Source: Candidatus Omnitrophota bacterium
GTDB lineage: Bacteria > Omnitrophota > Gorgyraeia > 2-02-FULL-51-18 > JAGOUK01
Length of the DNA: 31,800 nt
Direction of reading: 5' to 3'
Assembly (NCBI GenBank): GCA_018061225.1
Contig: JAGOUK010000001.1
Location: 1-31,800 of the forward strand
Below the pieces are notes generated by a model, which was not told the DNA's origin, ran no database searches, and was given only the letters and a program-made list of their open reading frames with translations. Shown piece after piece: positions 12,851 through 29,612 of the stretch (its first letter is position 1; each line of letters begins with the position of its first letter). Both the position numbers and the translations under genes were made by a program.

Positions 12851-12934
12851 TTTTTAAGATACTCCATTCATGGGACCCCCTTCCAAACTGCCGGAGATCC
12901 CGATTTAATTAACAGGCTGCCAACCCCTCTTCCC

Positions 12935-13041
12935 GCAGTCTGCTCAAAAAGCCGCAGATGCAAGACGCGAAGGTGCGCCGCGTGGTACTGCCACGTTAGC
13001 GCCTGAGCAACGCAGCAGATGCGGCTTTTTCAGCAGACTGC
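12935..13041 (+). repeat. Palindromic intergenic element, copy A (107 nt)
   Basis: Terminal inverted repeat GCAGTCTGCTCAAAAAGCCGCA (12935-12956) / TGCGGCTTTTTCAGCAGACTGC (13020-13041), 21/22 complementary; internal hairpin CGTGG-TACTG-CCACG; core motifs shared with 29428..29535. Confidence 0.85.
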
Positions 13042-13610
13042 TACGCGGAAAGAACTCGTGTCACTTTTTGATCATGCGCTTCGCGGGGCACTCGGTCCAC
13101 GCACTGAAAAGCAAATGCCAAGGCAATCCGCGATGCCCGCGGATTCAACGCGGCTATAAACCGGTCGTAATATCCTTTGCCGCGGCCGAGCCTAAAGCCC
13201 TCGTGGTCAAATGCCAGGCCCGGCACAATCACGCAGTCCACCTCAGCCGGCCGCACCAAATTCGTTACGGCCGGATCCGGCTCCAGGATGCCGAACGAGC
13301 CCGCCGCAAAGGATCCGTCCCAACGCTTTAGCTCACGCGCCTCGATCACGCCCGCCCCCGGCACAACCCGCGGTACGCAAACACGGCGGCCTGTTTCCAG
13401 GCAACGGTGGATCATTGTCCGCGTATCCGGCTCTTCCGGCATCGAGACATAACAAAAAATCGTCTTCGCCTCCAAAAAATCCGCGTCCTTCCACAAGAGC
13501 TCCCGCATCCTCGCCGATGCCGCTTCCCGGTCCATCGAAGTCATCTCCGCCAGCTGCCGCGTCATCTGAGCGCGAAGGGCTGCTTTTTTCTCTATCAAGG
13601 TGGTCTTCAT
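13041..13610 (-). CDS. ygfA: 5-formyltetrahydrofolate cyclo-ligase
   Basis: EKKAALRAQM N-terminus, EPDT, IVPGLAFDHEGFRLGRGKGYYDR, VPREAHD; start moved to ATG 13610. Confidence 0.95.
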   Translation of the reverse strand: MKTTLIEKKAALRAQMTRQLAEMTSMDREAASARMRELLWKDADFLEAKTIFCYVSMPEEPDTRTMIHRCLETGRRVCVPRVVPGAGVIEARELKRWDGSFAAGSFGILEPDPAVTNLVRPAEVDCVIVPGLAFDHEGFRLGRGKGYYDRFIAALNPRASRIALAFAFQCVDRVPREAHDQKVTRVLSA

Positions 13611-13641
13611 AAGTTCACGCGGATCCGGCGCGGACCGCGCC

Positions 13642-14106
13642 TTAAATATTAAAGTGAATGGGCAGCGATCCGGCGGCGGCTGGCTCGGCGCGGGCAGCCA
13701 GAATGATTTCTTCGAGCGACACGCGGTCCAGCGCCGCCTCAAAAGCATCTGATAATTTTCGCCAAAATAACTCGGCCGCGGCCTGCGGAACCAACCGCGA
13801 CCGCTTGAGCGCGGCCGCCTTAGTCTCGGGCGCCTGCCGGATCAACGTATCCTCGCCCAGGGCTTTGAGCAGCGACCCGACCTTGATTTCGGAGGGCTTT
13901 GACGTGAGCACATACCCTCCGCGCGGGCCTCGGACACTTTTGACCCAACCTTCGCGTTTGATCCGAGAGAGGATCTGCTCAAGATACGCGGCGGATATTT
14001 TTTCTTCGCTGGAGATCTGCGAGACGGACACGGCGCCTTCACCGTAGCGTTCGGCCAGATACAGCATGGCTTTAAGCCCGTAAGTCGCGCGCGTGCTAAA
14101 TTTCAT
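13642..14106 (-). CDS. Rrf2-family transcriptional regulator, cysteine-free (CymR-like)
   Basis: MKFSTRATYGLKAMLYLA, YLEQILSRIKREGWVKSVRGPRGGY; no Cys in the protein; C-terminus HFNI. Confidence 0.92.
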   Translation of the reverse strand: MKFSTRATYGLKAMLYLAERYGEGAVSVSQISSEEKISAAYLEQILSRIKREGWVKSVRGPRGGYVLTSKPSEIKVGSLLKALGEDTLIRQAPETKAAALKRSRLVPQAAAELFWRKLSDAFEAALDRVSLEEIILAARAEPAAAGSLPIHFNI

Positions 14107-22807: not shown

Positions 22808-22995
22808 ATTGGTCCCACAGCGCCGTGTGTCGTGTCCTGGCTGAATCCCTGTTTTTACAGGGCGGGTGCCTACTACCGACATTTCTTATCCGACAGATCG
22901 CCGGATCTATCCACGCCGGGGTTCGACACCCACATGAGTTATATCGGATTCGCGCGTATGGACACAACGAAGCTCGAACGCCGCAGGAAACTCTT
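22808..22995 (-). ncRNA. ssrS: 6S RNA
   Basis: ~185-nt rod: closing stem UCCUGCGGCG/CGCUGUGGGA, GUUGUGUCC/GGACACGAC, GAAUCC/GGAUUC, central bubble with 3' hairpin CCCUG-UAAAAA-CAGGG, GUGGGUGUC/GGCACCCGC, apical GAUAGAUC/GAUCUGUC. A TATAAT lies ~7 nt upstream. The ends are approximate. Confidence 0.82.
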
Positions 22996-27535: not shown

Positions 27536-27590
27536 AGTTTGCTAAAAAATCCCATCTGCATCTTTGCGGACCGCGTTTCCGCGGTTGCAT
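27536..27590 (-). repeat. Palindromic intergenic element, truncated copy B
   Basis: Minus strand ATGCAACCGCG-GAAA-CGCGGTCC-GCAAAGATGCAGATG-GGATTTTTTAGCAAACT. The right arm matches the copy A right arm at 21/25 positions with one gap. Confidence 0.6.
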
Positions 27591-29346: not shown

Positions 29347-29427
29347 AAAAAATTTTTCCCAAGCGGTCATTAATCCACACGAGCGCTGCGAAGCAGCGTA
29401 CGCCCCAAACACGACTCCCAATCAACC

Positions 29428-29535
29428 GTTTCTGCGACAAAAGGCGCCATATGCTAGGCGCGGCGGTGTGAAGCATACAATGCAGTATGCGAATACCGCC
29501 GCAACGACGCAGATGGCGCCTTTTCTCGCAGAAAC
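29428..29535 (+). repeat. Palindromic intergenic element, copy C (108 nt), abutting the tRNA-Val CCA end
   Basis: GTTTCTGCGACAAAAGGCGCCAT (29428-50) / ATGGCGCCTTTTCTCGCAGAAAC (29513-35), 22/23 complementary; inner stems GCGGCGGT/ACCGCCGC and GCATAC/GTATGC. Confidence 0.85.
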
Positions 29536-29612
29536 TGGTGGGCAATACAGGATTCGAACCTGTGACCTTTTCCATGTCAAGGAAACGCTCTAACCAACTG
29601 AGCTAATTGCCC
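29536..29612 (-). tRNA. tRNA-Val(GAC)
   Basis: GGGCAAT/ATTGCCC acceptor stem, anticodon arm TTTCC-TTGACAT-GGAAA, TTCGAAT T-loop, encoded CCA. Confidence 0.97.

What the first reader, a model, noticed from the sequence alone, without database searches (positions are those of the whole stretch)
12935..13041. Family of ~107-nt structured intergenic elements: conserved core, co-varying stems
Seen: copy A (12935-13041) and copy C (29428-29535) share one architecture. Each has a ~10-bp outer stem, a single C/C mismatch at position 11, an A-tract/T-tract stem, the core ATGC(A/T)AG(A/G)CGCG, a variable internal hairpin, and the core GCAACG(CA/AC)GCAGATG. Stem sequences differ (GCAGTCTGCT vs GTTTCTGCGA; AAAAAGCCGC vs AAAAGGCGCC), yet each copy pairs almost perfectly. 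A truncated copy B lies in the opposite orientation at 27536-27590. The G-T pairs I found form on the core-bearing strand in all three copies, whatever the direction of neighbouring genes. Inference: structure is selected on one single strand (ssDNA or RNA), as in REP or HUH/Y1-transposase substrates. A simple MITE would instead conserve its end sequences. I cannot assign it to a named family. Copy A starts within the ygfA TAG stop.
Basis: partly seen in the sequence, partly recalled or inferred. Interest (0 to 1): 0.8.

Follow-up and report, generated by a model that had tools for sequence, protein, structure and literature searches.

The report
Hairpin repeat family at gene ends
The ~107-base hairpin is one copy of an apparently undescribed family of small non-coding mobile repeats that land on stop codons and tRNA gene ends throughout an order of small-genome wastewater bacteria; some copies have been kept in shape for a long time, probably as gene-end signals.

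Summary

- **Size of the family.** The window's 1.33-Mb MAG holds 30 copies. A covariance model finds the family in 34 of 41 related genomes (23 of 30 genera). It matches no Rfam family.
- **Structure.** On 86 copies, 97.8% of stem positions pair, against 74% in shuffles. 31 of 34 pairs show compensatory changes.
- **Strand.** The fold is better on the core-bearing strand: G·T versus A·C is 84:16, and the energy is lower in 79 of 86 copies.
- **HUH/REP reading not supported.** Y1 transposase genes in these genomes carry other inverted repeats.
- **The ends are conserved.** The family consensus is RCAGTCTGCT-C-AAAAAGCC. One filled/empty site pair shows a TTAA duplication, so this is a MITE-like element.
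- **Stop codons.** The element's first base completes TAA or TAG. An internal TGA serves a second reading frame.
- **Placement.** Most copies abut a stop codon or a tRNA end, with the core strand opposite the upstream gene. 13 of 30 tRNA genes are flanked.
- **Age.** Copy A is a lineage-specific insertion. Copy C is conserved across two genera with compensatory changes.

The likely role is a gene-end hairpin (terminator or processing site), but this is untested. Why the non-coding strand folds better is unexplained. The scan has noted similar repeat families in other small-genome lineages.

The parts
12935..13041 (+). Copy A, full element. P1 is 12935-12944 paired with 13032-13041. The C/C mismatch is at 12945 and 13031. 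P2 (A-tract/T-tract) is 12946-12956 paired with 13020-13030. Core 5' is 12958-12969, the inner hairpin 12970-13005 and core 3' 13007-13021.
   Evidence: Sequence; fold -67.8 kcal/mol, z -8.5; nhmmer E 1e-25; covariance model 119 bits. Absent at the orthologous site in G001, G002 and G003.
13041..13043 (-). TAG stop codon of the 5-formyltetrahydrofolate cyclo-ligase gene (13041-13748, minus strand). Its third base is the last base of P1.
   Evidence: ORF list; Pfam PF01812, E 4e-43. Congeners without the element have TAA here.
29428..29535 (+). Copy C, full element. P1 is 29428-29437 paired with 29526-29535, and P2 is 29439-29450 paired with 29513-29524. It begins at the base after the CCA end of tRNA-Val.
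   Evidence: Sequence; fold -75.3 kcal/mol, z -11.3; covariance model 108.5 bits. An orthologous copy is present in G003 and, diverged, in genus g2 (G004). It is absent in G001.
29536..29612 (-). tRNA-Val(GAC), last gene of a tRNA-Cys/Leu/Val cluster. Its 3' CCA abuts copy C with no spacer.
   Evidence: ARAGORN and Rfam.
27536..27590 (-). Copy B, a possible truncated remnant. It keeps ATGCAA, a short hairpin, GCAAAGATGCAGATG, GGATTTTTT and AGCA, but lacks the 5' arm. It lies in the thrS-infC spacer, sense to thrS.
   Evidence: Weak: nhmmer E 0.35, no covariance-model hit at E <= 1, fold no better than shuffles. It is a ~55-nt insertion absent from G001 and G003 at this spacer.

Best explanation
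The feature is one copy of a previously undescribed family of non-coding, hairpin-forming mobile repeats. They are MITE-like, about 105 nt long, with a 138-nt long form, and they are spread through one order of small-genome (1-2.7 Mb) uncultivated bacteria, probably PVC/Omnitrophota-like. Shown: each copy is an imperfect palindrome. Its arms, consensus RCAGTCTGCT-(C)-AAAAAGCCNC, act as terminal inverted repeats. The arms enclose two highly conserved, non-palindromic internal loops (GATGCNAGGCGCGA and GAGCAACGNNGCAGATG) and a variable inner hairpin. Copies are gained and lost between congeneric species. At one clean filled/empty pair the target TTAA is duplicated. Because the target contains TA and the element starts with a purine, landing on a TAA or TAG stop codon regenerates the stop. 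An internal TGA (GCTGAAAAAG) closes a second reading frame. This explains why copies abut or overlap stop codons and tRNA ends in these tightly packed genomes. Also shown: resident copies are kept under constraint for the fold and for the core loops, even at an orthologous locus conserved across genera. About 85-90% of copies lie with the core-bearing strand opposite the gene that ends there. Inferred, not shown: retained copies serve the host as gene-end modules. P2 followed by a T-run reads as an intrinsic-terminator-like hairpin in both directions. P1 plus P2 make about 22 bp of duplex, the size an RNase III-type enzyme would cut, so the element may end, process or stabilise the upstream tRNA or mRNA. 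The transposase that moves it is unknown. The reason the fold is best on the strand that read-through from the adjacent gene would not transcribe is unexplained.
For: - Family size and spread: 30 copies in the 1.33-Mb MAG. 34 of 41 relatives and 23 of 30 genera have matches, and neither of the 2 same-class outgroups does.
- Structure: 97.8% of cells pair vs 74.4% in shuffles and 27-41% with slid partners. 31 of 34 pairs have double changes.
- Conserved ends.
- Mobility: copy A is absent at the orthologous site in three congeners. Several G002 copies are absent at the matching G000 sites. A G020 copy is absent in four congeners.
- Target duplication: G034 has ...CTC-TTAA-CCTCC... where G028 has ...GTC-TTAA-[element]-TTAA-CGGC.... 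TA sits at the expected flank position in 29 of 39 copies on the 3' side and 13 of 39 on the 5' side; I estimate about 5% by chance from base composition.
- Placement: in G000 13 of 30 tRNA genes have a copy within 7 nt, and 8 protein genes have one at the stop. In relatives about 40 of 60 copies have an opposite-strand gene ending within -13..+4 nt of the core strand's 3' end.
- Long-term retention: the copy at tRNA-Val/thrS is present in G000, G003 and genus g2 (G004), with T-A to C-G double changes between G000 and G003.
- No coding capacity and no Rfam match.
Against: - No autonomous element with these ends was found. IS630-type (3 of 41 genomes) and IS4/IS5-type (6 of 41) transposase genes have unrelated ends, and no solo arms occur in G000.
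- The duplication is clean at only one site. Most 5' flanks lack TA. One G002 site looks like a ~15-nt duplication of the gene end instead.
- A terminator or processing role is not shown. The simple terminator scan does not call the element, because its 'loop' is ~65 nt. The only RNA runs were too shallow to cover it.
- Some copies lie sense in tRNA leaders, and one lies in a 5' UTR between the -10 box and the ribosome-binding site. That argues against strong termination in that orientation.
- The fold is best on the strand opposite the upstream gene. A transcript-level role in read-through RNA does not predict this.
Confidence: 0.6

Rival explanations
1. Purely selfish MITE with no host role. 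Under this reading the hairpin and its 'compensatory' changes are maintained by templated correction of quasi-palindromes, or by selection for transposability. Placement at gene ends simply reflects where insertions are harmless.
For: Presence/absence differences between congeners; conserved terminal repeats and the TTAA duplication; stop-codon regeneration makes such sites neutral landing places.
Against: The copy at tRNA-Val/thrS persists across two genera with the cores intact and stems changed in compensatory fashion. The most conserved columns are the non-palindromic internal loops, which palindrome correction would erase. The ~85-90% orientation bias relative to the adjacent gene is not expected from insertion of an element with inverted-repeat ends.
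Confidence: 0.2
2. A family of small RNA genes, or an antisense or single-stranded-DNA signal, that works on the core-bearing strand. The conserved purine-rich internal loops, with two tandem G.A motifs, would be a protein-binding or catalytic platform.
For: G.T vs A.C is 84:16 on the core strand, with 18 columns vs 5 favouring G.T. The core strand is more stable in 79 of 86 copies, mean -66.2 vs -59.8 kcal/mol. P1 often extends to pair with the complement of the tRNA CCA end through T.G wobbles. In tRNA leaders the core strand would be transcribed and released by RNase P.
Against: No conserved promoter lies upstream of the core strand, and the 5' flank can be as short as 5-16 nt before the next gene. 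No RNA evidence is available. The TTAA duplication and copy-number swings of 1 to about 57 matches per genome look like a transposon.
Confidence: 0.13
3. One reading: substrates of an HUH/Y1 (RAYT or IS200/IS605-type) transposase that moves them as folded single-stranded DNA.
For: Strand-specific fold. Y1_Tnp genes are common in this order, in 32 of 41 genomes.
Against: No Y1_Tnp is found in the window's genome, though it is only 81% complete. G020, G025 and G031 have 7-23 copies and no Y1_Tnp, whereas G004, G021 and G039 have Y1_Tnp but no or nearly no element. 14 Y1 loci carry other inverted repeats and no copy of this element as a flank. Two copies flank one tRNA-Gly in opposite orientations at two loci, which excludes a strict replication-strand rule. 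The TTAA duplication is not an HUH signature.
Confidence: 0.05
4. Integron-type attC or another recombinase site marking gene cassettes.
For: Imperfect palindrome of attC-like size, with a strand-specific fold and unpaired bases.
Against: No RYYYAAC/GTTRRRY boxes are present. Copies are scattered behind housekeeping genes such as groEL, thrS-linked tRNAs and ygfA rather than in cassette arrays.
Confidence: 0.02

Closest known systems
[quoted passage not shown]
   Same: A non-coding, multi-copy intergenic repeat of roughly 100-150 nt whose transcript would form a stable hairpin with terminator-like features. No transposase of its own.
   Different: No sequence relation and a different phylum. 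Here the conserved part is an asymmetric internal core. Copies overlap stop codons and tRNA ends with a strong orientation bias, and the fold is better on the non-coding strand.
Correia elements (Neisseria) and other IS630/IS5-type bacterial MITEs (PMC10969869, PMC3184786)
   Same: Terminal inverted repeats, a TA-containing target that is duplicated, and a size of 100-160 nt. The long duplex formed by the arms in RNA is an RNase III substrate in Neisseria. Insertions are polymorphic between strains or species.
   Different: Correia ends are unrelated. No parent IS was found here. The duplication is demonstrated at only one site. Old copies let their outer stem drift with compensatory changes while the interior stays fixed, which is the reverse of the usual MITE pattern.
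ERIC / enterobacterial intergenic repeat units (PMC2759123, PMC3184786, PMC10969869)
   Same: An imperfect palindrome of ~127 nt in transcribed intergenic regions, conserved over a whole bacterial family. Insertion at gene 3' ends can affect mRNA levels.
   Different: No sequence similarity. The element here is tied to stop codons and tRNA ends and supplies stop codons.
REP/BIME sequences with RAYT (Y1) transposases (PMC2817692)
   Same: Extragenic palindromic repeats at gene 3' ends in high copy number, with the idea of single-strand recognition.
   Different: REPs are 20-40 nt and flank their RAYT gene. This element is ~105 nt, is not found next to any Y1 gene sampled, and shows a target duplication.

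Membership tests
Any Rfam family (release 15) | Covariance-model match at the gathering score, or at least a specific sub-threshold hit | tested here: not met
   Window scan: only 3 tRNAs and 6S RNA. Local scans at E <= 10: nothing for copy A, and only generic miRNA-hairpin models for copy C.
MITE (non-autonomous cut-and-paste element) | Terminal inverted repeats conserved among copies | tested here: met
   Arms RCAGTCTGCT[C/G]AAAAAG occur in inverted pairs about 107-110 nt apart in five genomes of five genera and in G002/G000 copies. tRNA-linked copies have diverged outer stems.
MITE (non-autonomous cut-and-paste element) | Target-site duplication, shown by filled versus empty sites | tested here: inconclusive
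   One clean case: TTAA is single in G034 and on both sides of the element in G028. TA is enriched at both flanks, 29/39 and 13/39, but this is partly confounded by stop codons. Other filled/empty pairs are unclear on the 5' side.
MITE (non-autonomous cut-and-paste element) | Small size, no coding capacity, presence/absence polymorphism | tested here: met
   105-140 nt. Absent at orthologous sites in congeners for copy A and several other copies.
MITE (non-autonomous cut-and-paste element) | A parent IS with the same ends encoding the transposase | tested here: not met
   DDE_3 in 3 of 41 genomes and DDE_Tnp_1 in 6 of 41, with unrelated ends. No solo arms in G000 and no kb-spaced arm pairs in five genomes. 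These are draft MAGs, so absence is not proven.
REP / RAYT system | Short (20-40 nt) palindromes that flank a Y1 (RAYT) transposase gene | tested here: not met
   The element is ~105 nt. No PF01797 in G000. Y1 genes in relatives are flanked by other inverted repeats.
IS200/IS605-type (HUH) single-strand elements | No terminal inverted repeats and no target duplication; sub-terminal hairpins; orientation tied to the replication strand | tested here: not met
   Inverted-repeat ends. TTAA duplication. Oppositely oriented copies on the two sides of a single tRNA-Gly at two loci.
Integron attC site | R''/R' boxes RYYYAAC...GTTRRRY, and cassette arrays next to an integrase | tested here: not met
   The consensus has no such boxes. 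Copies are dispersed behind housekeeping genes.
Intrinsic (Rho-independent) terminator | G+C-rich stem directly followed by a run of U in the transcript | tested here: inconclusive
   P2 (for example GCCGC/GCGGC) is followed by T5 in both orientations. The enclosed 'loop' is ~65 structured nt, so the simple scan does not call it. Sense copies lie in tRNA leaders and in a 5' UTR. No 3'-end data.
Retron or reverse-transcriptase-made single-stranded DNA | A reverse transcriptase gene in the genomes that carry the element | tested here: not met
   RVT_1 is found in only 4 of 41 genomes and in none of the element-rich ones.

The most novel reading that the evidence does not exclude
The family is a domesticated mobile element that has become this lineage's standard gene-end module and works on the strand opposite the upstream gene. 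It might act as a one-way terminator or insulator against antisense or read-in transcription, or as a folded single-stranded-DNA or antisense-RNA signal read by a protein that binds the two conserved purine-rich loops. That would explain the order-wide conservation of the asymmetric core, the roughly 5:1 excess of G.T over A.C on the non-coding strand, the stem extension onto the complement of tRNA CCA ends, and the fixed orientation.
Probability: 0.18. Interest if true: 0.7.

Novelty: new member of a known kind. Interest (0 to 1): 0.48.

Why it matters
These MAGs are compact (1-2.7 Mb) and their gene-expression signals are unknown. One repeat family sits behind 13 of the 30 tRNA genes detected in this MAG and behind housekeeping genes such as groEL. 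Anyone annotating transcription units, terminators or small RNAs in this lineage needs a model of it.

It is also a clear natural example of a mobile element that can hit stop codons harmlessly because it rebuilds them. It rewrites C-termini by a few residues when it lands just inside a gene.

The better fold on the non-coding strand was also noted by this scan for a hairpin repeat in Patescibacteria. If it reflects function rather than history, it points to an unrecognised strand-specific process at gene ends.

In practice, the family breaks short-read assemblies: unitigs end inside copy A.

Tried and rejected
- **Rfam.** A gathering-score scan of the window and permissive scans of both copies gave nothing specific.
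- **HUH/RAYT link.** PF01797 is absent from G000. It is present in 32 of 41 relatives, but without correlation to the element and with other flanking repeats.
- **Reverse-transcriptase (retron-like cDNA) idea**, which could explain a fold on the template strand. RVT_1 is in only 4 of 41 genomes, so I rejected it.
- **Parent IS.** IS630-type and IS4/IS5-type transposase loci have unrelated ends. There are no solo arms in G000 and no kb-spaced arm pairs in five genomes.
- **Replication-strand rule.** GC skew in this fragmented MAG is too weak to use; a rough third-position comparison suggests the minus-strand genes of the window are co-directional with replication. The two inverted copies around single tRNA-Gly genes already exclude a strict rule.
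- **Expression.** Only two shallow metatranscriptome runs, kept as contigs without strand, hold parts of the window, and neither covers a copy. This gives no evidence either way.
- **Promoter for the core strand.** Consensus scans around A and C found none, and I saw no conserved motif in the 5' flanks apart from loose C/A-richness in genus g1.
- **Taxonomy.** ThrRS relatives in named records reach only 54-55% identity (Planctomycetales, PVC and Omnitrophota MAGs), and none of those loci has the element. The exact-protein look-up returned only an unnamed metagenome record. 'Omnitrophota-like' is therefore a guess.
- **Literature.** Two full-text searches found no description of this family.
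- **More filled/empty pairs between G028 and G034.** Two gave no ortholog, and two had rearranged spacers that do not resolve the 5' junction.

Full report
**1. What is at the coordinates**

The layout is:
- a 10-bp outer stem (P1);
- a C/C mismatch;
- an A-tract/T-tract stem (P2);
- a core ATGC(A/T)AG(A/G)CGCG;
- an inner hairpin;
- a core GCAACG(CA/AC)GCAGATG;
- then the complementary arms.

As single strands they fold at -67.8 and -75.3 kcal/mol. That is 8.5 and 11.3 standard deviations below dinucleotide shuffles.

Copy A's right end overlaps the TAG stop (13041-13043) of a minus-strand 5-formyltetrahydrofolate cyclo-ligase gene. The next gene downstream on that strand encodes RNase Y. Copy C starts at the base after the CCA end of tRNA-Val(GAC), the last gene of a Cys-Leu-Val cluster, and lies upstream of thrS.

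Copy B (27536-27590) does not fold better than shuffles. It scores E = 0.35 with a family HMM, and the covariance model misses it. The same thrS-infC spacer in two congeners lacks these ~55 nt. I therefore treat B as a plausible truncated remnant, not an established member.

**2. It is a large family**

The window's genome is a 1.33-Mb, 201-contig MAG estimated 81% complete. An HMM built from motif-anchored copies finds 30 copies at E < 1e-8.

A covariance model built on 24 copies matches 34 of 41 related genomes. These include 23 of 30 genera and three families of one order. Neither of the two same-class outgroups has a match. Counts run from 1 to about 57 matches per genome, and some loci hit on both strands. 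More distant genera carry a 138-nt long form with an extended interior.

Rfam has no counterpart, and two literature searches found no description.

The organism comes from wastewater or activated sludge. Its ThrRS is closest, at only 54-55% identity, to PVC, Planctomycetales and Omnitrophota MAGs, so the taxon is not settled.

**3. Structure and strand**

On 86 copies from 20 genomes, 97.8% of stem cells form standard pairs. Shuffled partners give 74.4%, and partners slid by 1-3 columns give 27-41%. 31 of 34 pairs show changes on both sides.

The most conserved columns are the non-palindromic loops GATGCNAGGCGCGA and GAGCAACGNNGCAGATG. On the core-bearing strand these place two tandem G.A/A.G motifs and other purine-purine oppositions. 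This is my reading of the alignment.

Wobble pairs are lopsided. G.T occurs 84 times and A.C 16 times on the core strand, and G.T leads in 18 columns against 5. The core strand is the more stable one in 79 of 86 copies, with a mean of -66.2 vs -59.8 kcal/mol. Copies are related, so these numbers overstate independence, but the direction is consistent.

From established knowledge, cytosine deamination on the non-transcribed strand and on the leading strand would push the other way. I therefore read this as selection, not mutation bias.

**4. Where copies sit**

In G000 the 3' end of the core strand abuts a gene end at almost every locus:
- ten loci lie directly after a tRNA 3' end, with the element antisense to the tRNA;
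- five lie 1-7 nt before a tRNA 5' end, in sense orientation;
- eight lie on the stop codon of a protein gene, antisense.

13 of the 30 tRNA genes detected have a copy within 7 nt.

In 60 copies from relatives, about 40 have an opposite-strand gene or tRNA ending within -13..+4 nt of that end. About six are in the sense orientation behind a gene. One of the upstream genes is recognisably groEL, from its GGM tail.

Two tRNA-Gly genes are bracketed by two copies that both point at the tRNA. Orientation therefore follows the neighbouring gene, not the replication fork.

**5. Stop codons**

In stop-codon contexts the flank reads ...CTG(C/T)|TA. The stop is therefore TA plus the element's terminal purine, as seen from the gene's strand. 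Congeners lacking copy A have TAA where G000 has TAG.

Genes in another frame run 10-13 nt into the element and stop at the TGA of GCTGAAAAAG. At the G028/G034 pair the insertion replaced the last seven codons with three. Genome-wide stop usage in G000 is TAA 42%, TGA 42% and TAG 16%.

**6. Mobility and mechanism**

Copy A is absent at the orthologous site of all three congeners. At least four G002 copies are absent at the matching G000 sites. A G020 copy is absent from four congeners.

RCAGTCTGCT[C/G]AAAAAG occurs as inverted pairs about 107-110 nt apart in five genomes of five genera, with some pairs 70-230 nt apart.

The decisive junction is G028 versus G034. The empty site reads ...GTATTTCTC-TTAA-CCTCC.... 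The filled site reads ...GTATTTGTC-TTAA-[CAGTCC...GGACTG]-TTAA-CGGC.... This is a duplication of TTAA, or of its central TA.

Flanks of the form YTAR are frequent. TA is at the expected position in 29 of 39 copies on the 3' side and 13 of 39 on the 5' side; I estimate about 5% by chance from base composition. Stop codons on either side inflate this.

Other junctions are not clean on the 5' side. One G002 site looks like a ~15-nt duplication of the gene's end.

No driver was found:
- Y1 transposase genes are common but carry other repeats;
- reverse transcriptases are rare;
- IS630-type and IS5-type transposase loci have unrelated ends.

**7. Retention**

The copy behind tRNA-Val is present in G000 and G003. 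Their interiors are ~90% alike with T-A to C-G double changes, while P1 has diverged beyond recognition yet still pairs. A diverged copy sits at the same place in genus g2 (G004) and still shows GAGGCGC...GCAACGAAG. G001 lacks it, so that genome probably lost it.

A resident copy kept in shape over that distance argues for constraint in place, not only at the moment of transposition. tRNA-linked copies often extend P1 to pair with the complement of the CCA end, several times through T.G on the core strand.

**8. Most likely working**

I conclude that this is a MITE-like element whose TA-containing target and purine end let it land on stop codons without damage. In these dense genomes that leaves gene ends as the tolerated sites.

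Retained copies probably act as gene-end hairpins. P2 plus a T-run resembles an intrinsic terminator in both directions. P1 plus P2 give about 22 bp of duplex, the size RNase III-type enzymes cut in Correia-element transcripts (PMC10969869). This role is inferred and untested.

Three things argue for caution:
- sense copies sit in tRNA leaders and in one 5' UTR between a TATAAT box and the ribosome-binding site;
- the simple terminator scan does not call the element;
- the fold is best on the strand that read-through from the adjacent gene would not make.

That last point remains unexplained. That note is a lead, not evidence.

**9. Verdict**

This is a real and well-supported new family of a known kind: structured intergenic mobile repeats like SPRITE, Correia and ERIC. 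The HUH/REP reading is not supported. Copy B is doubtful. Interest is moderate. The strand-specific constraint and the order-wide use at tRNA and gene ends are the parts worth an experiment.

Noticed in passing
window 22808-22992 (-): 6S/SsrS RNA gene, 53 bits against Rfam's gathering score of 46.4. It is not next to the ygfA-like gene as it is in E. coli.
   Followed up: no
G000 contigs C134:5373-5579, C142:5198-5404, C151:1850-2032: Three different tRNA-Arg genes are each followed by two copies of the element in tandem. In C134 the pair is a ~102-nt direct duplication in which the first copy lacks its own 3' arm.
   Followed up: partly
L140-L157 (G028 loci), about 26-30 nt 5' of P1: A G028 subfamily carries an extra solo arm (TAACAGTCTGCTGAAAAACC) about 10 nt before the full hairpin. 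It could pair with the 3' arm without the C/C mismatch. In several convergent gene pairs it supplies the stop codon of the gene arriving from that side.
   Followed up: partly
L166-L179 (Y1_Tnp loci in G003, G008, G011, G028): RAYT-like Y1 transposase genes of 200-350 aa, up to 8 per genome, are widespread in this order. Each is flanked by its own 24-37-nt inverted repeats (for example GGGGTCAGTCCTTAAATATTGACA). Many sit at contig starts, which suggests further repeat families that break assemblies.
   Followed up: partly
window 29373-29427; L186 (G003) equivalent: Between thrS and copy C lies a hairpin (GAGCGCTGCGAAGCAGCGTA) followed by CCCCAAACAC. Both are conserved in G003, which also has three tandem 15-nt units (AATCAACCGATCCTG). 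This may be a thrS leader element. G001 has only 22 nt between tRNA-Val and thrS.
   Followed up: no
L033:1501-1638 (G020:C5): One copy lies sense-oriented inside a 5' UTR, between a conserved TATAAT box and the ribosome-binding site of a gene. The site is empty in four congeners. This is a natural test case for whether the core-strand orientation lets transcription through.
   Followed up: partly
L213 (G002:C40) vs G000:C122:3729-3866: At this filled site the last ~15 nt of the upstream gene (CTGATCGGAATTTAG) recur in decayed form (CGTGATAGGCTTTCAG) on the other side of the element. This looks like a much longer duplication than TTAA, or a secondary repair of the gene end.
   Followed up: partly
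window 12941-12968: Logan unitigs of the likely source metagenome end and restart inside copy A. This shows that the repeat fragments short-read assemblies of this organism.
   Followed up: no
window 12872-12901; G003 and G001 equivalents: A small hairpin with loop CTCCAAACTGCC lies just upstream of the RNase Y start codon on the minus strand. It is conserved in congeners that lack copy A, so it may be an RNase Y leader or the original ygfA terminator.
   Followed up: no
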